In this document: positions 18,669-62,508 of the stretch, piece after piece
Position numbering within the stretch: position 1 is the first letter of the stretch
How the letters are laid out: each line of letters opens with the position of its first letter
IMG/VR virus record: IMGVR_UViG_3300023047_000002
DNA from: a virus
Lineage: Duplodnaviria > Caudoviricetes
DNA: 64,000 bases
Direction: 5' to 3' (one strand)
Program-made: the position numbers and the translations under genes
Notes under the pieces: generated by a model
Told to the model about the DNA's origin: nothing
The model's database searches: none
The model's input: the letters and a program-made list of their open reading frames with translations, nothing else

Positions 18669-18905
18669 TTAAATGCCTGAATTGCCATTATCGGAAATGT
18701 CCCGAAGACGGTCAAAATGTTCATTAAGAATTGACATGATTGCCAAGTCTTTCTTTGCAAGGTAATCCATGAGTTCAATCAACACCTTGGACAAGTACTT
18801 GATGTTCTCATCAGCCATAATCTCTTCATCTGTTCTCATAACGACATACTCCACAAATAGTTCTAAAACGACAAGATACCCTGTCGTTTTAGAAATATAA
18901 CACAA
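18669..18905 (-). CDS. Small hypothetical protein
   Basis: ORF downstream of a TGGTGCTG promoter; real start probably a downstream ATG (MRTDEE). Confidence 0.5.
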   Translation of the reverse strand: MCYISKTTGYLVVLELFVEYVVMRTDEEIMADENIKYLSKVLIELMDYLAKKDLAIMSILNEHFDRLRDISDNGNSGI

Positions 18906-18933
18906 AATATATTAAATACCTTTATCAGCACCA
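18894..18933 (-). promoter_or_regulatory. Phage promoter TGGTGCTG-N23-TGtTATATT
   Basis: Motif family. Confidence 0.65.
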
Positions 18934-27013: not shown

Positions 27014-27053
27014 TTTATACCACAAGAGACAGAACACAATCGAAGCAGCACCA
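27014..27053 (-). promoter_or_regulatory. Phage promoter TGGTGCTG-N23-TGgTATAAA
   Basis: Motif family. Confidence 0.7.
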
Positions 27054-29379: not shown

Positions 29380-29402
29380 TTTGAAAATCCTCTTGCTTTG
29401 CA

Positions 29403-29449
29403 GTGAACTACCAACCGCCTAAAGGCGGTGGGCTTTCGGCTCTCTTTTG
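29403..29449 (-). mobile_element. 47-bp single-hairpin IS200/IS605 element with both left and right cleavage sites
   Basis: Minus strand TTAC|CAAAAGAGAGCCGAAAGCCCACCGCCTTTAGGCGGTTGGTAGTTCAC. Confidence 0.7.
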
Positions 29450-29590
29450 GTAAAAACTCACGGACAACGTGTACGAAACACTATGCAGTTCTGATACGAA
29501 CAATGTGGTTTTAGCAGGAACCGTAACCGGTGCACTCATGATACAGAACACGAATAAGCCAGAAAGACATTTTCGTCAACAGAGAACAGC

Positions 29591-29705
29591 GAAAAATGAA
29601 ACACGTTCATAAAGGGGTCTAGAATGCGTTCTACGAGATTTTATGGCTTAGGCATGTACTTACTAGGTCATGTTCAAAAAGTCGCGAGAACTGCATCCTA
29701 GGGCA
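29591..29705 (+). repeat. ~100-bp dispersed element, copy C (imperfect palindrome)
   Basis: CTAGAATGCGTTCTACGAGATTTT ... AAAAGTCGCGAGAACTGCATCCTAG arms around TACTTACTAGG. Confidence 0.65.
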
Positions 29706-29809
29706 CTGTATGTACGTGTTTACAGTTGAGTGATGACATATGGCTAAACTTCACCAAAGAATTCGAGATGCCTATCCACAGGTTCGCGGGAAGAGGTTAA
29801 AACCGGAGA

Positions 29810-31080
29810 CATGACCATAACCAGGTACGAAACCAATGTCACGACTAGAATTTTAACGACAGGATGCTTACGCACATGACTATAATCTTGATTTCAGGAT
29901 GATTTCATGAGCTAGAGCGCTCTTTGACACGACTAGGATTTTTAACAACATGATGCTTTCAGAACGTAGTAGAACGCTAAAGCATGACACGACTATGACT
30001 TTAACGACAGCACTGTTCAAAGTACGATACGACCATAACTTGATCACAGGTAGAGCGAAAACGCTCTTAGACAGGACTATGTTTTCACAGGAGAATTTTA
30101 ACAACAGGATGCTAAAGCATGACTATGTTATTTACTACAGGTGAAGACTTTACAGGAATTCGAGCTAGAACGCTCTTTGACTTGACTTCGATTTTTAACG
30201 ACAGGATGTGATGCTGAAAGCATGACTTGACTATAACTTGATCACATGATCTTTTACAGGATGCTAATGCTGAAAGCATGACATGACTTCGATTTTTAAC
30301 GACAGGGAGAATTTCAGGATGCTAAAGCACATGACTAGGATTTCATTGTCACATTAAGCAAAAATCATGCCAGCACATTCAAATCTTGCCATTTTTGACA
30401 TGACTATTATTTTCCCAGCCCATATAAGTTAATAATTAATGAACCCCACATAACTCTTTGATTTTATTGACATTTTTCAAACAACAAGGTTTACATCTCA
30501 AATCAGCGTTCATATAAGTTATAGGATCTACCTTATAAAAATTTATTCTTTGGGAAAATAAAATATTTTTATAAGATAGAGATATAACTTATATGAACGT
30601 GTCTTAGTAAGTTAAAGTGTGCGAAATAAAAAAGACAATAAAATCAATGGGTTACACGAGCTCCAATAATTATTAACTTATATGGGTAAAAAATAATCGG
30701 CATCCTGTGGTTAAGATCAAAGTCATGTCTAAGTGCAAGCATCCTGAAATCTTGTTAAGATCATGGTCGAGTCTTAAGGTAGTCCCCTCTACACAAAAAT
30801 CCTGTGGTTAAGATTAAAGTCATGTCTTGAGCATGAGCGCTCCATCCTGAAAGCATCATGTGGTTAAAATCAAAGTCATGTCTTGCTGTTTCAGCATCCT
30901 GAAATCTGTGAAGATCTTAGTCATGACCCTGTCGTAAGATTCTGAGAGCGTTCTTAGTCGAGTCTTGAGCATGAGCGTTCCATCCTGAAATTTCCTGAAA
31001 GCCTCCTGTGGTTAAGATCAAAGCCATGTCTTGCTGTTTCGGTCATGTCTGCATTGCGGTCAAAGTCATGTCTTGCTGAT
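29810..31080. other. Candidate bidirectional replication origin: inverted iteron arrays around an AT-rich palindrome
   Basis: Left TTTTAAC(G/A)ACAGGATGCT/CATGAC repeats; right CATCCTGTGGTTAAGAT/GTCATG repeats; nested IRs centred at 30553; strand-composition switch. Confidence 0.75.
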
Positions 31081-31184
31081 GACTTGTTCCTGATCGTCTT
31101 GCCTAATTTATCTTCTGACGACGATGCAGAACTCTTGATCATGATCGTCATACTACTGTCAGTTTATACGCATGTAATTGCTAC

Positions 31185-31306
31185 TTGCATCGGTTGGTTA
31201 TCTATGATATCAAGGTCTTGCGGCTAGGTTAGCTCCCGAAAAGGCGAAAGTCCAACGCGCTCTGCCGCTTTCTCACATCGTTGGACGTTGCGCAGTTGGA
31301 GGCAAC
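31185..31306 (+). promoter_or_regulatory. Sigma70-type promoter plus structured leader
   Basis: TTGCAT-N17-TATCAA; GTCCAACG (31250-57) is complementary to 31279-86 and to GTTGGA overlapping the RBS. Confidence 0.5.
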
Positions 31307-34041: not shown

Positions 34042-34081
34042 TGGTGCTGTGTGCTCTGTTACTTTAGTTTTGTGTTAAAAG
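34042..34081 (+). promoter_or_regulatory. Phage promoter TGGTGCTG-N23-TGtTAAAAG
   Basis: Motif family. Confidence 0.65.
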
Positions 34082-43649: not shown

Positions 43650-44045
43650 ATGATTCAATGTCTATCAGAACTAGAATCTGAATATATTAGTTACCGTTCC
43701 AGACGTTTTCCTGATGAATACACATGGCTTACAGGCAACTGTTTTCAGTACGCTTGTATCCTTCGTGAGTGGTTGCTGCTTCATTGTGTTGCATCACGTA
43801 TAGTTTATGATGTGATTGACGGACATTTCCTCGTTATTTCTGAACTGCCTATGAACCGTAATGATACGGTTTTGTTTTCGTTTGTCTTGGACTATACCGG
43901 CGTTGTAGTTATCCATCCTGGGTTCATAAATGTTTTAGGTGAGATTTTTTATCATGATGGCAAACATTTCCTTGTGGATTGGGATTATTATGCCGAGATT
44001 GAGCCTCTTAATTGGAGTAGGATTTGTTCTTATTGCTGTTGCTGA
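43650..44045 (+). CDS. Hypothetical protein
   Basis: GNCFQYA...GHF...DYTG. Confidence 0.6.
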   Translation: MIQCLSELESEYISYRSRRFPDEYTWLTGNCFQYACILREWLLLHCVASRIVYDVIDGHFLVISELPMNRNDTVLFSFVLDYTGVVVIHPGFINVLGEIFYHDGKHFLVDWDYYAEIEPLNWSRICSYCCC

Positions 44046-44100
44046 ATTATTTTGTTTTCGTCTTTGTTGCGTGATTCAGATTATTGTGTTATCTAAACAG

Positions 44101-44713
44101 TAAGATTGCGGCACATTAGACCTGTCGCAGTTCTTTGAAAGGTGAAGAATGGTTTGGTACATGGCTTTCCAACGTACAGGATCTTATACAAGCTGAGTTT
44201 GTGGGTTGTTTCCGAGCAAGAAAAAGCAAAGATTGGCTTCGCGGCTGTCTTAACTTGACTTACGTTTCCTATACACTTCTTCAGAAAGGTTATCACTCTT
44301 GTGGTAGGTTTTCTGAAGAAGTGTGGCGGGTGAGATGACTAACACGGATTGATCGTGGCGTGCACCTTCGTTTTGACGCTTGACTGTGACGAGGTTTTAC
44401 GGGTCTTCGGGCTTGCTTGCACAGTTCACCACCGGTATCGTGACGGTGGTGAGATGATGGCTAGGTGTGGGATGATCGTTGCACACAATTCCCGTAAAGG
44501 GCTGTACGTTGGAAAGCCATGTAACTTGCTTGGATGGTCACACTTTGTGGCTTACGGCAGAATCGCCAGGGCGCACGTTTTCGTGTGGGAATACTCCTGC
44601 CCTTAAAGTCTTTGGTTTATGATGTTGCTTGCATCATTGATTGTAAGGGCTTTGTGCCCTCCGTGTCGAATTGCATGAAAGAGCGTTCTGTTATCAGCAG
44701 AACGCTCTTTTTT
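44101..44713 (+). ncRNA. Candidate large structured non-coding RNA (~610 nt)
   Basis: TTGCGT-N17-TATCTA promoter, leader hairpin plus AGTTCTTTGAAA boxA, 22-bp long-range stem, many hairpins, intrinsic terminator, no credible ORF. Confidence 0.7.
44678..44713 (+). terminator. Intrinsic terminator
   Basis: AAAGAGCGTTCTG...CAGAACGCTCTTTTTT. Confidence 0.8.
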
Positions 44714-44728
44714 GTGTCTCGTTTACCG

Positions 44729-44768
44729 TGGTGCTGTACTCTTTTCTATATCGACTTTGTGGTAGAGT
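44729..44768 (+). promoter_or_regulatory. Phage promoter TGGTGCTG-N23-TGgTAGAGT
   Basis: Motif family. Confidence 0.7.
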
Positions 44769-44807: not shown

Positions 44808-46118
44808 TTGGAGAGTACAGTGTTTAAAGTTGAATTGACAAATGTAGGTATTATTCGAGAGGCGAGCTTGTCTTTCGTACCTGGTGTAAACTTAATTCTC
44901 GGTGCAAGCTCTTCCGGTAAGTCTACGCTGTTGCGTGCTTTAAGAGGTCTTGCAGACAACAGCTTTACGGATGCTATGGTTACGCATGGTTCTGGTATGA
45001 TGCAGATTGATGTGGATACGGGTGACTCTCACGTTACCTATACCCGTGATACCAAAGCCCGTGATAGAAAAGCATGTTATGTTGTGAATGGTGAGGAGTA
45101 CACGAAACTCGGTAGGCAGCAGCTTGATGTTGTTGCTGACACCTTGCGTGTGTCTTCAGTTAAAATTGACTCAGAGTCAGTGAACTTTAACTTTTCCAGT
45201 CAGTTTGCAGGACCGTTCCTTCTCCTCGGTTCTCCTTCTACGTTGTATTCGGTTTTGACTTATCATGAGAGTTTCGATGTCTCAAGGCTTGATGACCTGT
45301 ATAAAGCTGACGTTAAAGATACTTCAGACAAGATAAAGTTGAGTACTGAATTGGTTTCACAGTTTGAGATTGAGCTAGAAAAGTCTGATGCACGTGTAAA
45401 AGAGTTGTCTGCAATCCCTGATTTATATGCACGTGTGATGCAGGTCAAAATGAAACGTGAACGAGTTGAAAGTCTTCGTTCTATTTTAACTCGGATTTCT
45501 ACGTTGCAGGCTGAACGTGTTCGATGTGTAGCCATGCTTCATAAGCATTCAGACATGCATAGTTCTATCGTCACGTGTATGCTTAAGATGCGTAAGCGTC
45601 ATCTGTTGTCTTCTCTTGTGATTCGCTATGAAGAACAACGTAAAGCACGTGAGATTCTTAGTCTGTGTAATGAAGTGTCTTCATTTCCCATTACCCGTGT
45701 TGAATCCGCACTGTCACATTACTTGACCGTTGTGAAATGGGTTGAAATGAATGATGCTTACAATAAGCAACTGTCTCGTTATCGCATGTCAGACAGTGTT
45801 GCTTCTGTGTCGGTAAACAAGTTCTTGGAAATCTTGTCAAGATTTGAGAAAATTTCACGCCTTGTAAATCTTTATCGTGATATCCGAAATTCAGCTGTCC
45901 GCCTTGGAAATTCTCCTGACTTAAAGTCACGGTACGAAATTATTGAGAAATGTATCTCCGCCATCTCTCTGTTTCGTGAAGTTGATGTTTCGTCACGGAA
46001 GATGCTTGGGTTCGATGTGGATTGCGATTTCGTTGATAGTCAACTGGCTGAGTTTAAGGTTTGCCCTTTATGCGGCAACCCTTTGTGTACTCACGATGAA
46101 GCGTCTGTGGTGCTGTAA
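44808..46118 (+). CDS. sbcC: SbcC/Rad50 N-terminal half (Walker A, coiled coil, Zn hook)
   Basis: GVNLILGASSSGKSTLLRAL; ends in CPLCG. Confidence 0.8.
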   Translation: MESTVFKVELTNVGIIREASLSFVPGVNLILGASSSGKSTLLRALRGLADNSFTDAMVTHGSGMMQIDVDTGDSHVTYTRDTKARDRKACYVVNGEEYTKLGRQQLDVVADTLRVSSVKIDSESVNFNFSSQFAGPFLLLGSPSTLYSVLTYHESFDVSRLDDLYKADVKDTSDKIKLSTELVSQFEIELEKSDARVKELSAIPDLYARVMQVKMKRERVESLRSILTRISTLQAERVRCVAMLHKHSDMHSSIVTCMLKMRKRHLLSSLVIRYEEQRKAREILSLCNEVSSFPITRVESALSHYLTVVKWVEMNDAYNKQLSRYRMSDSVASVSVNKFLEILSRFEKISRLVNLYRDIRNSAVRLGNSPDLKSRYEIIEKCISAISLFREVDVSSRKMLGFDVDCDFVDSQLAEFKVCPLCGNPLCTHDEASVVL

Positions 46119-46196
46119 GTTCATCTATGACGTCTTTATGATACATAAGCATTGTTTTCCTTCTGTTTTTGTTTCAACTTTATAGGAGATTTAACA

Positions 46197-46471
46197 TGGA
46201 TATTAAAACACAGGACATGGTTACGAAATTTGAGGAACTTAAAAAGCGACGTGACAATATTATGCTTGAACGTGCAAAAGAAGAAGCACGTCTTGAGACG
46301 TTGACAAAAGAACTTGATGCCTTGAAAGAGTCATTGAGTGAATATGGTGTTGTAGATGAACTGTCTGCACGTGAGTTGCTTGAACGTACCTCAAGTGAAT
46401 TAGCGGTTGAACTGCATAACCTTGAACAGGCGTTACAGTCTTACGACAATGTACAAATTGCAGAGGCTTGA
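46197..46471 (+). CDS. Small coiled-coil protein (middle piece of the split SbcC)
   Basis: AGGAG RBS, ATG 46197; heptad-rich; own TGGTGCTG promoter at 46108. Confidence 0.6.
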
Positions 46472-47115
46472 AATACATGACTTTTGACGAAATTGAACAG
46501 CGGACAAGTGAGCTTTTTGTTGCATACAAGGCAGCTGTAGCTCAGGCTAAACAGAATGAAGAGATCCTGGAAGGTCATAGAGCACAACTAGAGTACTTGA
46601 AGGAACGCGGTCGTGTGTTTGATTCAGCTAAGCCTGTTATTGATGACATCGTTCACAAATTCTCAAGACGTGCCCTTGATCATCTTGAAAAGCTGCTGAC
46701 TTTCGGTTTGCGGAAAATTTTCACAGACCATGAGTATTCTCTTACCATTGTAACAACGGACAAGCGTGGCAACAAATGTGCTGAGTTGATTCTTGAGGAA
46801 GGTGGGTATCAGTATCCTTTGAAAGACTCTTCTGTTGCTGGTGGCATTCTTGTTACAGTCGGATTCCTAATCCAGTGCTTTTATGTGTCTAATCTACCAG
46901 TACGTAAAATCGTTTTTCTTGATGAGGCTTTCACGCAAATTTCCACTGCGTATCTTGAGAATTTCATGGCTTTTGTCTCGGAGCTGACAAAGCAAATTGG
47001 GCTCATAGTGGTCTTAATCACACATGACAAACGTTTCATTCCATACGGAAATCGTGTGTACAATGTCGTCAATGGAGTGTACACCCTTGAGCAGAATAAA
47101 GTCTCGGAGGCATGA
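46468..47115 (+). CDS. SbcC/Rad50 C-terminal half
   Basis: Signature-like SVAGG, Walker B FLDEAF, H-loop LITHD. Confidence 0.8.
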   Translation: MKYMTFDEIEQRTSELFVAYKAAVAQAKQNEEILEGHRAQLEYLKERGRVFDSAKPVIDDIVHKFSRRALDHLEKLLTFGLRKIFTDHEYSLTIVTTDKRGNKCAELILEEGGYQYPLKDSSVAGGILVTVGFLIQCFYVSNLPVRKIVFLDEAFTQISTAYLENFMAFVSELTKQIGLIVVLITHDKRFIPYGNRVYNVVNGVYTLEQNKVSEA

Positions 47116-48056
47116 TGTCGGTATCACATGAAGAAAGTTTGGAACACATTGGCAAGGTGATGTTTGTCGGAGATGTTCATCTTAAGGCACAGAATCCTGC
47201 TTGCCGAAAGGATAACTACGCTGATGCTGTATTGCGTAAGCTGACATGGATAAAGACTTACTGTAATGACAAACACATAAATGTTGTTGTTTTCCTTGGT
47301 GATTTCTTTGACACTCCAACAGTCGCCTGGTCGTTGTTTACACAGGTTATGCAGATTCTTCAGACCTTCAAAGATTCAGGCATACGTTGTTATGCTATCG
47401 TTGGAAATCACGATATCCGTTATGACAGACTTGAAACTTTGAACGAGACTTCGCTTGGTGTTCTCTTTCTTTCCGGTCTTCTTATCCGATTGTCTGAGAA
47501 TCCAATCTTGTTACGTAGTGACGGTTCAAAGATTGTTGGGTTTGACTTCACCCAGAAAATTACTCCACCTTGCGAAGAGTGCGGAGAAGGTGCACAGGTC
47601 ATTTGTGTAGCCCATGAATATTTCCAGTGTGGTTTCTCAGACACGTCTTTGCAGTGTGAAGATTTGGACACCGCAGGTTATTCTTCGTATGTGTTTGGAC
47701 ATGACCATGCACCATACATGCCTCTTAAACAAGTGTCTTGGACGTTGTACCGTCCCGGAAGTCTTTCACGAAATTCGTCTGATGCACATAATCTGATGCG
47801 TATCCCTCGTGTCTTAGTGTATGATGTTTCAACGGATGTATTTACATTCGCTGAGGTGTCTGTCGCCAAGAAGCCTGAAGAGGTCATTATGCGTAATCAG
47901 GAAGAGGTATCATTGAGTATGTTCGATTTGGTTGAGACTTTGTGCAGTTCGTATGACGGAGGACAGACTTCTGTACGTGCATACGTTTCTGAAATGGGAC
48001 TGCCAAACGAAATTCATAACATCGTAACCCAGTATCTGGACAAACTTGGAGTGTAA
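47112..48056 (+). CDS. sbcD: SbcD/Mre11 metallophosphoesterase nuclease
   Basis: GDVH, LGDFFD, GNHD, AH, GHDH, PGSL. Confidence 0.88.
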   Translation: MMSVSHEESLEHIGKVMFVGDVHLKAQNPACRKDNYADAVLRKLTWIKTYCNDKHINVVVFLGDFFDTPTVAWSLFTQVMQILQTFKDSGIRCYAIVGNHDIRYDRLETLNETSLGVLFLSGLLIRLSENPILLRSDGSKIVGFDFTQKITPPCEECGEGAQVICVAHEYFQCGFSDTSLQCEDLDTAGYSSYVFGHDHAPYMPLKQVSWTLYRPGSLSRNSSDAHNLMRIPRVLVYDVSTDVFTFAEVSVAKKPEEVIMRNQEEVSLSMFDLVETLCSSYDGGQTSVRAYVSEMGLPNEIHNIVTQYLDKLGV

Positions 48057-55365: not shown

Positions 55366-55405
55366 TGGTGCTGTCACATTCCTATTGGGTATTGTGTGGT
55401 ATTCT
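55366..55405 (+). promoter_or_regulatory. Phage promoter TGGTGCTG-N23-TGgTATTCT
   Basis: Motif family. Confidence 0.7.
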
Positions 55406-62430: not shown

Positions 62431-62508
62431 TGTGGTGCTGATACTCAAGTTCTACATAAATTGTGGTAGAGTCATACTTGCGTTTTTCTTTTTGTTTGGT
62501 GGTGTATT

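What the first reader, a model, noticed from the sequence alone, without database searches (positions are those of the whole stretch)
44067..44713. ~610-nt stand-alone structured RNA with an rRNA-operon-like boxB/boxA leader and a processing-type stem
Seen: a promoter (TTGCGT-N17-TATCTA with extended TG, 44067-44095) and a leader hairpin (44104-44132) running into AGTTCTTTGAAA (44129-44140). A perfect 22-bp inverted repeat (44158-44179 / 44502-44523) encloses a ~320-nt multibranch domain: a 15-bp stem at 44273-44324, a UUCG hairpin near 44401, a 9-bp stem at 44426-44452, and GGTGAGATGA twice (44329, 44448), each at the 3' side of a hairpin. A second nested domain lies at ~44568-44660, then a terminator. 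There is no RBS-supported ORF. Known: hairpin plus GTTCTTTGAAA is the rrn boxB/boxA Nus-antitermination signal, and long stems flanking an RNA are RNase III processing stalks. Inference: the phage makes a stable RNA using host rRNA transcription and processing logic. I see no tRNA, tmRNA, RNase P or SRP hallmarks, so it may be a new class or a relative of the large phage RNAs (ROOL/GOLLD).
Basis: partly seen in the sequence, partly recalled or inferred. Interest (0 to 1): 0.85.

Follow-up and report, generated by a model that had tools for sequence, protein, structure and literature searches.

The report
New large structured RNA in jumbo phages
The 0.75-kb gene-free gap between the tail-fibre genes and the recombination genes of this large uncultivated phage is a stand-alone gene for an elaborately folded non-coding RNA of about 615 bases. 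Compensatory mutations preserve its fold in five related phage lineages, it matches no catalogued RNA family, and its job is unknown.

Summary
Observation confirmed. The + strand folds far better than shuffles (z = -8.3).

I found the same RNA in 10 distinct sequences from 5 lineages of related phages, about 230-240 kb where near complete. It is always single-copy and always lies between a small conserved ORF and the SbcC-like gene.

- **Covariation:** 73 core pairs are 95.6% paired. 35 pairs show double changes, against 17 in shuffles and 4-12 in slid controls.
- **Closing helix:** uninterrupted for 20-24 bp in all ten sequences.
- **Strand:** G·U outnumbers A·C 121 to 9, so the + strand is the functional RNA.
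- **Not coding:** no conserved ORF, no codon periodicity, and indels are mostly not multiples of three.
- **Not catalogued:** Rfam 15 gives no match in the window or in relatives.

It is therefore a real, uncatalogued large phage ncRNA. The rRNA-operon-like reading (boxA antitermination plus RNase III stalk) fits the anatomy. It remains unproven because the host is unknown, the 11-mer is only partly conserved, and no transcript data could be obtained. The scan has reported other boxA-led large phage RNAs on other DNA, but none resembling this one in sequence.

The parts
44067..44095 (+). Host-type sigma70 promoter: -35 at 44067-44072, 17-nt spacer with extended TG at 44087-44088, -10 at 44090-44095. 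Predicted start near 44101-44103.
   Evidence: Read directly. The -10 block with TG is conserved in 4 of 5 lineages, and relatives have -35 TTGCA.. It is unique in the window and differs from the phage-specific promoter class.
44101..44137 (+). 5' leader hairpin (inner stem 44107-44115 / 44122-44129, outer 4 bp 44101-44104 / 44134-44137), in the position of boxB in rrn leaders.
   Evidence: Alifold on 10 sequences: 7 of 9 inner pairs covary and the sequence differs in each lineage.
44130..44140 (+). boxA-like 11-mer directly after the leader hairpin, 18 nt before the 5' arm of P1.
   Evidence: Matches the consensus GYTCTTTAANA of PMC5725501 at 10 of 11 positions. The 3' part (C-Y-U-U-G-A-A-A) is kept in 9 of 10 sequences. 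Function inferred, not shown.
44158..44179 (+). P1, 5' arm of the closing long-range helix.
   Evidence: Perfect 22-bp complement of 44502-44523. 20 aligned pairs are 100% paired in 10 sequences and 11 covary. Uninterrupted for 20-24 bp in every sequence.
44182..44335 (+). 5' subdomain of the core: candidate P2 (44182-44187 / 44330-44335, invariant), P3 (44192-44199 / 44252-44259), P3a (44202-44205 / 44211-44214), P4 (44230-44238 / 44243-44250) and the long hairpin P5 (44269-44295 / 44300-44329).
   Evidence: P3 has 3, P3a 2, P4 3 and P5 16 covarying pairs. On alignment A6, P5 has 12 of 20. P2 has an alternative local pairing (44183-44188 / 44200-44205); the two cannot be told apart because both partners are invariant.
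44328..44363 (+). Most conserved strand of the RNA, including hairpin P6 (44343-44348 / 44352-44357) and the start of P7.
   Evidence: Nearly invariant across all 10 sequences. P6 has one A-U to G-C double change.
44358..44486 (+). 3' subdomain of the core: P7 (44358-44365 / 44478-44486), P8 (44369-44375 / 44468-44474), P9 (44378-44380 / 44459-44461), variable arm P10 with a UUCG/UACG tetraloop hairpin (44383-44425), and hairpin P11 (44426-44434 / 44444-44452).
   Evidence: P7 has 4, P8 3, P9 2, P10 3 and P11 6 covarying pairs. P10 is shortened in the L003/L021 lineage while P11 is replaced by an unrelated hairpin at the same place.
44487..44523 (+). Invariant junction, hairpin P12 (44491-44493 / 44499-44501 with a 5-nt GUAAA loop) and the 3' arm of P1 (44502-44523).
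   Evidence: This block served as the search pattern that recovered relatives.
44524..44676 (+). 3' domain outside P1: several hairpins and the conserved hairpin 44646-44660. Variable in length among lineages.
   Evidence: The hairpin at 44646-44660 recurs in all five lineages. L006 and L007 carry about 150-280 extra nt here.
44677..44716 (+). Intrinsic terminator (16-bp stem, 3-nt loop, U run) that ends the RNA.
   Evidence: A terminator is detected in the L003 and L007 lineages; in L006 a likely one, with a 12-nt loop the scan cannot see, is read from the sequence and fold. The stem has 4 covarying pairs.
44730..44764 (+). Boundary marker, not part of the RNA: phage-specific promoter motif that starts the SbcC-like operon (gene from 44820).
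   Evidence: Six equally spaced copies in the window against 0.07 expected. Conserved downstream of the RNA in all five lineages, directly after the terminator where one was detected.

Best explanation
This is an independent gene for a large structured non-coding RNA. It is about 615 nt here (roughly 44101 to 44716, + strand) and defines a new family confined to a clade of large phages (about 230-240 kb where near complete) from metagenomes.

Shown:
- The locus is non-coding.
- It folds on the + strand into a 5' leader hairpin, a 305-335-nt multi-branched core closed by an uninterrupted 20-24-bp helix (P1), a variable 3' domain and a terminator.
- The fold is maintained by compensatory substitutions.

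Inferred:
- Host RNA polymerase transcribes it from a canonical sigma70 promoter.
- The hairpin plus boxA-like element in the leader recruits the host Nus (rrn-type) antitermination complex. This shields a long untranslated transcript from Rho. As proposed for the rRNA leader-trailer helix, it also helps the 5' arm of P1 find its 3' arm about 340 nt later.
- P1, two helical turns long, is cut by RNase III. This would release a core RNA of about 345 nt that acts in trans as a compact folded particle, in the manner of the other large ornate phage RNAs.

My odds: real trans-acting ncRNA gene 0.9; novel family 0.85; P1 is an RNase III site 0.5; the 11-mer is a working boxA 0.4.
For: Fold:
- z = -8.3 on the + strand, and 57 kcal/mol better than the minus strand.
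- In paired cells G·U occurs 121 times and A·C 9 times, so selection acts on the + strand RNA.

Conservation:
- 10 distinct sequences in 5 lineages, all between the same two genes.
- One copy per genome, including a record judged 96% complete.

Covariation:
- 73 core pairs are 95.6% paired.
- 35 pairs have double changes, against 17.1 +/- 2.4 in shuffles (0 of 500 reach it) and 4-12 with slid partners.
- P1 is 100% paired with 11 covarying pairs. The long hairpin P5 has 12-16 and the leader hairpin 7.

Non-coding:
- ORFs differ between lineages, substitutions are spread evenly over the three phases, and most indels are not multiples of three, for example 0 of 10 between L005 and L024.

Own transcription unit:
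- The promoter is conserved in 4 of 5 lineages. A terminator was detected in four lineages and is likely in the fifth (L006), and a separate phage promoter motif follows the RNA in all five.

rrn-like logic:
- Hairpin, then an 11-mer matching the boxA consensus at 10 of 11 positions, 18 nt before P1.
- P1 length is held at 20-24 uninterrupted bp.
- The role of boxA and the leader-trailer helix in rRNA is taken from PMC10250234.
Against:
- The boxA-like element is only partly conserved. Positions 3 and 5 of the consensus vary, one close relative (L002) has A where the consensus has C4, and the L007 lineage lacks it at the aligned place.
- The host and its rrn boxA are unknown.
- Another match to the same consensus in the window, at 29919, is just part of a repeated promoter-like unit, so a chance resemblance is possible.
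- A long perfect helix need not be a cleavage site.
- Only 5 independent lineages, so covariation statistics carry phylogenetic inflation.
- Nothing found here points to a specific molecular function.
Confidence: 0.6

Rival explanations
1. It is the same structured RNA gene, but the rrn resemblance is coincidental. The RNA works as the full-length ~615-nt molecule, P1 is purely architectural, and the leader motif is conserved for another reason such as folding, stability or protein binding.
For: - The leader 11-mer keeps only 7-8 of 11 consensus positions in relatives.
- A consensus match elsewhere in the window is a promoter repeat.
- The 3' domain outside P1 also carries a hairpin conserved in all lineages (44646-44660), which argues that the part outside P1 matters too.
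Against: - The order hairpin, boxA-like element, then the 5' arm of a long helix is kept at nearly constant spacing in four lineages.
- P1 length stays at the 20-24 bp that RNase III needs although its sequence changes.
- Long untranslated transcripts generally need protection from Rho (general knowledge; reviewed in PMC12360218, which I did not read in detail).
Confidence: 0.25
2. It is a cis-acting leader or attenuator that controls read-through into the SbcC/SbcD-like recombination operon downstream.
For: It always lies directly upstream of the SbcC-like gene and in the same orientation. It ends in a terminator that could be regulated.
Against: - In this window a complete copy of the phage's own promoter motif sits between the terminator and the gene. 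It has the same spacing as five other copies in the window, and the motif recurs downstream of the RNA in relatives.
- No alternative pairing competing with the terminator stem was seen.
- A 600-nt multi-domain fold far exceeds known attenuators.
- In L003 an extra ORF sits between the RNA and the gene.
Confidence: 0.07
3. It is a very divergent member of a known RNA class that the covariance models miss: ROOL, GOLLD, HEARO/IscB or TnpB guide-RNA scaffolds, group I/II introns, or a retron or DGR template RNA.
For: - Phage-encoded, large and ornate, like ROOL and GOLLD (PMC12286853).
- According to first-reader notes on this genome, which I did not check, it is littered with IS605-type remnants.
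- One relative has a TnpB-like zinc-ribbon ORF two genes upstream.
Against: - No Rfam hit at E <= 10 in a 1-kb search of this window, and none at E <= 1 in four relatives' loci.
- No tRNA genes in 64 kb.
- Single-copy and syntenic rather than mobile.
- Among the ten flanking proteins scanned, no reverse transcriptase, IscB or TnpB.
- No template/variable repeat pair in the window.
- It does not interrupt a gene.
Confidence: 0.04
4. It is a replication-primer transcript or origin element, or a DNA-level inverted repeat such as a recombination or SbcCD-targeted site, rather than a functional folded RNA.
For: It sits at the head of the replication/recombination module, contains a long inverted repeat, and lies next to a palindrome-nuclease homologue.
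Against: - Strand-asymmetric wobble pairs (121 G·U against 9 A·C) and covariation in 20 or more helices fit an RNA, not DNA.
- The arms are 322 nt apart, which is unfavourable for cruciform extrusion.
- A far better origin candidate, with iterons and nested palindromes, lies at about 29.4-31.3 kb (note e1-5665148).
- The unit ends in a terminator.
Confidence: 0.03
5. One of the short ORFs in the region (for example 44349-44606 or 44135-44338) encodes a small protein.
For: ORFs of 67-85 codons exist. A purine-rich string precedes the ATG at 44454.
Against: - No ORF is conserved in position or frame across lineages.
- The conserved nucleotide blocks fall in different frames in different phages.
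- No third-position bias.
- Frame-breaking indels between close relatives.
Confidence: 0.01

Closest known systems
ROOL RNA (Rfam RF03087) and GOLLD RNA (RF02032), large ornate RNAs of phages and prophages
   Same: Phage-encoded, several hundred nucleotides long, multi-branched with many covarying helices and highly conserved junction strands. Stand-alone genes with no known protein partner and unknown function (PMC12286853, PMC5737381).
   Different: No sequence or structure match to either model. Not next to tRNA genes, whereas ROOL and GOLLD are often near tRNA islands. Far narrower distribution: one phage clade and 10 sequences. Closed by a 22-bp terminal helix and preceded by a boxA-like leader. 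Multimer formation is untested.
Bacterial rRNA operon leader: boxB-boxA-boxC antitermination site plus the RNase III-cleaved leader-trailer helix (PMC10250234, PMC5725501)
   Same: Strong sigma70 promoter, then a hairpin, then a boxA-like 11-mer, then the 5' strand of a long helix whose 3' strand lies hundreds of nucleotides downstream and encloses a structured RNA.
   Different: The enclosed RNA is not rRNA. boxA identity is partial in relatives and no boxC was identified. Neither Nus binding nor RNase III cleavage is shown. The element is phage-encoded and single-copy.
Phage T4 stable RNAs C and D (species 1 and 2)
   Same: Phage-encoded stable non-coding RNAs of unknown function, made by the host transcription and processing machinery (from my own knowledge).
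   Different: The T4 RNAs are about 120-140 nt and are co-transcribed and processed with the tRNA cluster. This RNA is four to five times larger, has its own promoter and terminator, and has no tRNA neighbours.
Other boxA-led large phage RNAs noted earlier in this scan (e1-5595844, e1-5355224, e1-1920462)
   Same: Gene-free gaps in uncultivated or phiEco32-like phages that encode large covarying RNAs preceded by a boxA-like signal and have no Rfam match, according to those notes.
   Different: No sequence likeness to this RNA was found in the scan index. Those loci sit at the heads of early operons. The notes are unchecked by me.

Membership tests
ROOL (RF03087) / GOLLD (RF02032) | Significant match to the family covariance model (shared consensus sequence and structure) | tested here: not met
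   No hit at gathering score in 64 kb. None at E <= 10 in a 1-kb search with permissive filters. None at E <= 1 in four relatives' loci.
ROOL (RF03087) / GOLLD (RF02032) | Frequent location next to tRNA genes or tRNA islands in phages and prophages | tested here: not met
   ARAGORN finds no tRNA or tmRNA in the window. The neighbours are a small ORF and an SbcC-like gene.
ROOL (RF03087) / GOLLD (RF02032) | Homo-oligomeric RNA-only cage | not testable with these tools
   Needs in vitro transcription with native gel, SEC-MALS or cryo-EM.
rrn-type Nus antitermination site | boxA matching the host consensus (gamma-proteobacteria: GYTCTTTAANA, PMC5725501) | tested here: inconclusive
   The window matches at 10 of 11 positions (G for A at position 8), and relatives at 7-8 of 11. 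The host is unknown, so its own boxA could not be compared.
rrn-type Nus antitermination site | Hairpin (boxB position) directly 5' of boxA, near the transcript start | tested here: met
   The leader hairpin at 44107-44129 is present in all lineages, with 7 covarying pairs.
rrn-type Nus antitermination site | NusB-NusE binding and Rho resistance | not testable with these tools
   Requires EMSA or in vivo assays.
RNase III processing stalk (leader-trailer helix) | Uninterrupted duplex of about two helical turns (20 bp or more) formed by sequences flanking the mature RNA | tested here: met
   20-24 contiguous pairs in each of 10 sequences, perfect 22 bp here.
RNase III processing stalk (leader-trailer helix) | Cleavage by RNase III giving staggered ends | not testable with these tools
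   No read data were available.
IscB/TnpB guide RNAs (HEARO, omega RNA) | Adjacent IscB, IsrB or TnpB gene and an IS end; match to the HEARO model | tested here: not met
   Flanking proteins are tail-fibre assembly, unknown small ORFs, an SbcC-like ATPase and SbcD. No Rfam match. Only one relative has a TnpB-like ORF, two genes away.
Retron msr-msd / DGR template RNA | Neighbouring reverse transcriptase; for DGR, a template repeat matching a variable repeat in a target gene | tested here: not met
   No RT domain among the ten flanking proteins. No repeat of the region elsewhere in the window beyond chance 11-12-mers.
Group I / group II introns | Match to the intron models and insertion within a host gene | tested here: not met
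   No Rfam match. The locus lies between complete genes and has its own promoter and terminator.

The most novel reading that the evidence does not exclude
A phage has copied the whole logic of a ribosomal RNA operon to manufacture a previously unknown, catalytically or architecturally active RNA particle. That logic comprises a strong host promoter, Nus-complex loading on a boxA leader, chaperoned closure of a long leader-trailer helix and RNase III excision. The ~345-nt core released from P1 would be a new class of ornate RNA that acts during infection of an uncultured host, for example as an RNA-only assembly or as a decoy or scaffold for a host machine.
Probability: 0.3. Interest if true: 0.85.

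Novelty: new variant of a known kind. Interest (0 to 1): 0.66.

Why it matters
Large, intricately folded RNAs without a known function are rare; GOLLD, ROOL, OLE and a few others are known. Each has turned out to be structurally unprecedented once studied, forming RNA-only cages and dimers (PMC12286853).

This locus adds an independent family that is well supported by covariation. It has a clearly delimited transcription unit, a compact ~330-nt core suitable for in vitro folding and cryo-EM, and a testable biogenesis route through Nus factors and RNase III. If the rrn-like route holds, phages would be using the host rRNA transcription and chaperone complex to fold their own large RNAs. Other notes in this scan suggest that this may be widespread.

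The limits are the small number of sequences, the unknown host and the absence of any functional clue.

Tried and rejected
Searches that found nothing or little:
- Rfam at gathering and at permissive thresholds, on the window and on relatives: nothing.
- tRNA/tmRNA scan: nothing.
- blastn against 50,697 phage records: no match. The SbcC-like protein has only one remote hit there.
- Pattern scans of IMG/VR with three motifs: only two contigs.
- GTDB species genomes: none.
- The one metagenome scan gave one new relative (L017), two contigs already held from IMG/VR (L018, L019) and one chance hit (L016).
- More distant SbcC relatives (about 30% identity) have coding sequence where the RNA would be, and no nhmmer or covariance-model hit in their records. 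Only one of those records is complete.

Host identification failed:
- The tail-fibre chaperone has no relative in the genome collection.
- Its phage hits point only broadly to Gram-negative hosts.
- The atlas search was uninformative, and the paper search for sample ids gave nothing useful.

Other negative or inconclusive results:
- boxA enrichment: 5 consensus matches against 1.08 expected, but the one I inspected (29919) is part of a repeated promoter-like unit, so I give the enrichment no weight.
- Search for an antisense target or repeat of the RNA in the window: chance-level only.
- Search for extra tertiary pairings: one candidate (44195-44198 with 44593-44596) is complementary and conserved in 8 sequences. 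Its apparent covariation comes from poorly aligned rows, so it is not claimed.
- Upstream 131-aa ORF as a possible partner: confident model (pLDDT 90) but no PDB match at E <= 0.001, and only weak papain-like or transglutaminase-like hints. There is no sign of an RNA-binding fold.
- mafft-qinsi was not installed. The full core exceeds the 400-column limit for a covariance model, so only its 3' half was modelled.
Full report
**Observation**

The region was read directly. It contains:
- a promoter: -35 at 44067-44072, a 17-nt spacer ending in TG, and -10 at 44090-44095;
- a leader hairpin at 44107-44129;
- an 11-mer at 44130-44140 that resembles boxA;
- a perfect 22-bp inverted repeat at 44158-44179 / 44502-44523 with 322 nt between the arms;
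- a long hairpin at 44273-44324;
- a hairpin at 44400-44415 capped by a UUCG tetraloop, and a 9-bp stem at 44426-44434 / 44444-44452;
- a 10-mer repeated at 44329 and 44448;
- a further domain at 44524-44676, and an intrinsic terminator at 44677-44711 followed by a U run.

As RNA, the + strand folds to -242.5 kcal/mol, against -189 +/- 6 for dinucleotide shuffles (z = -8.3). The minus strand reaches only -185. GC rises to 0.48-0.50 over the region against about 0.40 in the flanks, with G > C and T > A on the + strand.

**Context**

The window is from a phage.
- Upstream lie a 591-aa protein (probably the tail fibre, no family match), a tail-fibre assembly chaperone (PF16778) and two small ORFs.
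- Downstream lie an SbcC/Rad50-like ATPase (start 44820), a second ATPase piece and an SbcD-like phosphoesterase.
- No whole genome is held for the window.
- Related records are 138-238 kb, and one of 227.6 kb is rated 96% complete, so this is a phage of roughly 230-240 kb.
- It has no relative among 50,697 deposited phage genomes at the DNA level.

**Relatives**

I recovered the homologous locus by three routes:
- motif scans;
- protein-guided retrieval with the SbcC-like protein;
- protein-guided retrieval with the small upstream ORF.

This gave 10 distinct sequences falling into 5 lineages:
1. the window and L002;
2. L005, L025, L017 and L024;
3. L006;
4. L007;
5. L003 and L021.

In every case the RNA lies between the homologue of the 131-aa ORF and the SbcC-like gene, on the same strand. 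The SbcC proteins of these lineages are 48-100% identical. Relatives at about 30% identity have coding sequence in that position and no match to a profile or covariance model of the RNA. That negative covers 7 records of such relatives, only one of them complete. The covariance model finds exactly one copy in each of the two whole records that could be searched. The motif is absent from 185,579 species-representative prokaryote genomes.

**It is an RNA fold under selection**

On a MAFFT alignment of the core (A6), RNAalifold predicts 73 pairs.
- 95.6% of cells are standard pairs.
- 35 pairs have changes on both sides, against 17.1 +/- 2.4 when 3' partners are shuffled among sequences (0 of 500 shuffles reach this) and 4-12 when partners are slid by 1-3 columns.
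- The closing helix P1 is 100% paired over 20 aligned positions, and 11 of them covary.
- The long hairpin P5 has 12-16 covarying pairs.
- P7, a long-range helix inside the core, has 3-4.
- The leader hairpin has 7 and the terminator stem has 4.

Variable arms behave as expected for RNA. P11 is replaced by unrelated hairpins at the same position. P10 is long in some lineages and short in another. The tetraloop switches between UUCG and UACG. Among paired cells, G·U occurs 121 times and A·C 9 times, which fixes the + strand as the functional one and argues against a DNA-level element.

One caveat applies. With only five lineages the shuffle test is inflated by shared ancestry, but the slid-partner control, which keeps relatedness, is equally clear.

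**It is not coding**

- ORFs of 30 or more codons differ in position and frame from lineage to lineage.
- Substitutions between lineages are spread evenly over the three phases (for example 103/98/97 for the window against L003).
- Indels are mostly not multiples of three (0 of 10 between L005 and L024; 3 of 22 between the window and L005).

**Architecture, in window coordinates**

- Leader: 44101-44157, with the hairpin and the boxA-like element.
- P1: 44158-44179 / 44502-44523.
- 5' subdomain of the core: 44182-44335, holding P3, P3a, P4 and the long hairpin P5. It is possibly closed by an invariant 6-bp P2, for which an alternative local pairing exists.
- An almost invariant strand with hairpin P6: 44328-44363.
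- 3' subdomain of the core: P7-P11 at 44358-44486.
- An invariant junction with the small hairpin P12, abutting the 3' arm of P1.
- 3' domain outside P1: 44524-44676. Its length varies (about 150 nt here, about 300-430 nt in L006 and L007), but it always contains the hairpin corresponding to 44646-44660.
- The terminator.

Directly after the terminator here and in the L003 and L007 lineages, and downstream of the RNA in all five, comes a phage-specific promoter motif (44730-44764). It has five more equally spaced copies in the window against 0.07 expected. The RNA is therefore an insulated transcription unit and not simply the leader of the next operon. Its own promoter is of a different, canonical sigma70 type and is unique in the window.

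**What it is not**

- Rfam 15 gives no match at gathering score in 64 kb.
- Only noise appears at E <= 10 in a focused 1-kb search, and nothing in four relatives' loci.
- There is no tRNA or tmRNA.
- No reverse transcriptase, IscB or TnpB flanks it. One relative has a TnpB-like ORF two genes upstream, but this is lineage-specific.
- Nothing else in the window repeats or complements the RNA beyond chance 11-12-mers.
- A much better origin-of-replication candidate lies at about 29.4-31.3 kb.

**How it probably works**

The anatomy copies an rRNA operon leader: promoter, hairpin, boxA-like element, then the 5' strand of a long helix whose partner emerges about 340 nt later. In E. coli, boxA loads the Nus/SuhB antitermination complex, and the leader-trailer helix is essential for making active 30S subunits; such long flanking helices are known RNase III substrates (PMC10250234, for the first two points; the last from general knowledge).

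The 11-mer here matches the gamma-proteobacterial consensus of PMC5725501 at 10 of 11 positions. From memory, the one difference (G at position 8) is the form found in Firmicutes-type boxA. P1 is held at 20-24 uninterrupted pairs in all ten sequences while its sequence drifts, which is the minimal size of an RNase III substrate.

I therefore consider the following route most likely. Host RNA polymerase transcribes the gene, the leader protects the untranslated transcript from Rho and helps P1 to close, RNase III trims at P1, and the ~345-nt core acts in trans.

The weak points are these:
- Relatives keep only 7-8 of the 11 positions.
- One close relative has changed the cytosine at consensus position 4. 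A double mutant that included this position abolished function in E. coli (PMC5725501).
- L007 has a different boxA-like string elsewhere in its leader.
- The host is unknown.
- No reads could be examined.

The molecular function of the mature RNA is open. I see no partner gene with an RNA-binding fold. The syntenic 131-aa ORF gives a confident model with no structural match and only weak cysteine-peptidase-like hints.

**Comparison and novelty**

In kind it is closest to ROOL and GOLLD: large ornate phage RNAs, stand-alone, of unknown function (PMC12286853, PMC5737381). It fails their membership tests, having no model match and no tRNA neighbourhood. In biogenesis logic it resembles rrn leaders.

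Earlier notes of this scan describe other boxA-led large phage RNAs on other DNA (e1-5595844, e1-5355224, e1-1920462). None shares sequence with this one, and I did not check them. I rate it a new family within an emerging kind. It is real and uncatalogued, with a plausible but untested biogenesis and an unknown function.

Noticed in passing
window 18898-18932(-), 27018-27052(-), 34043-34077(+), 44730-44764(+), 55367-55401(+), 62434-62468(+): Phage-specific promoter-like motif: GGTGCT(G), a fixed 21-22-nt spacer, then an extended -10-like TGTG.TA. There are six copies against 0.07 expected. The copy after the RNA is conserved in relatives. It probably marks a middle or late promoter class with an upstream activator site.
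   Followed up: partly
window 29380-31300: A 1.9-kb gene-free region packed with repeated units of about 60-70 nt and inverted copies around an AT-rich centre. It is a likely origin or early control region. One unit contains a string that matches the boxA consensus by accident, because it overlaps a TTGACA-like hexamer.
   Followed up: partly
window 43650-44045 (+): A 131-aa ORF, always directly upstream of the RNA and found only in this phage clade (4 clusters). It has invariant G-N-C, D-G-H-F-L and C-terminal C-C motifs. The AlphaFold model is confident (pLDDT 90.1) but has no PDB match at E <= 0.001. Weak recurring hits are to papain-like deubiquitinases, and weak Pfam hits to YunG-like and transglutaminase-like families. 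It may be a minimal cysteine peptidase fold.
   Followed up: partly
L005:1630-2319: One relative (Logan SRR24653746) carries a 229-aa ORF with a Cas12f1-like/TnpB zinc-ribbon domain in the slot that holds an unrelated 99-aa ORF in this window. This fits the IS605-type remnants that other readers noted in this genome.
   Followed up: partly
L006:2332-2810 and L007:2966-3410: In two lineages the part of the RNA 3' of P1 is expanded to about 300-430 nt with extra hairpins; L007 has two tandem terminators. The conserved hairpin equivalent to window 44646-44660 is retained.
   Followed up: partly
window 44669-44640 (-): A sigma70-like promoter match on the minus strand (10 of 12 positions) overlaps the conserved 3'-domain hairpin. 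It could give an antisense transcript, but the conservation is explained by the + strand hairpin.
   Followed up: no
window 44195-44198 and 44593-44596: Conserved complementarity between a single-stranded segment of the core and a hairpin loop of the 3' domain in 8 of 10 sequences. It is a possible pseudoknot linking the two domains. Covariation is not reliable because of the alignment.
   Followed up: partly
window 44820-48056 (+): The Rad50/SbcC-like function appears to be split over separate ORFs: a 432-aa AAA_23 head ending in a CPLCG hook motif, a ~91-100-aa ORF, and a 215-aa ATPase piece. These come before the SbcD-like gene. The same layout occurs in all relatives.
   Followed up: no
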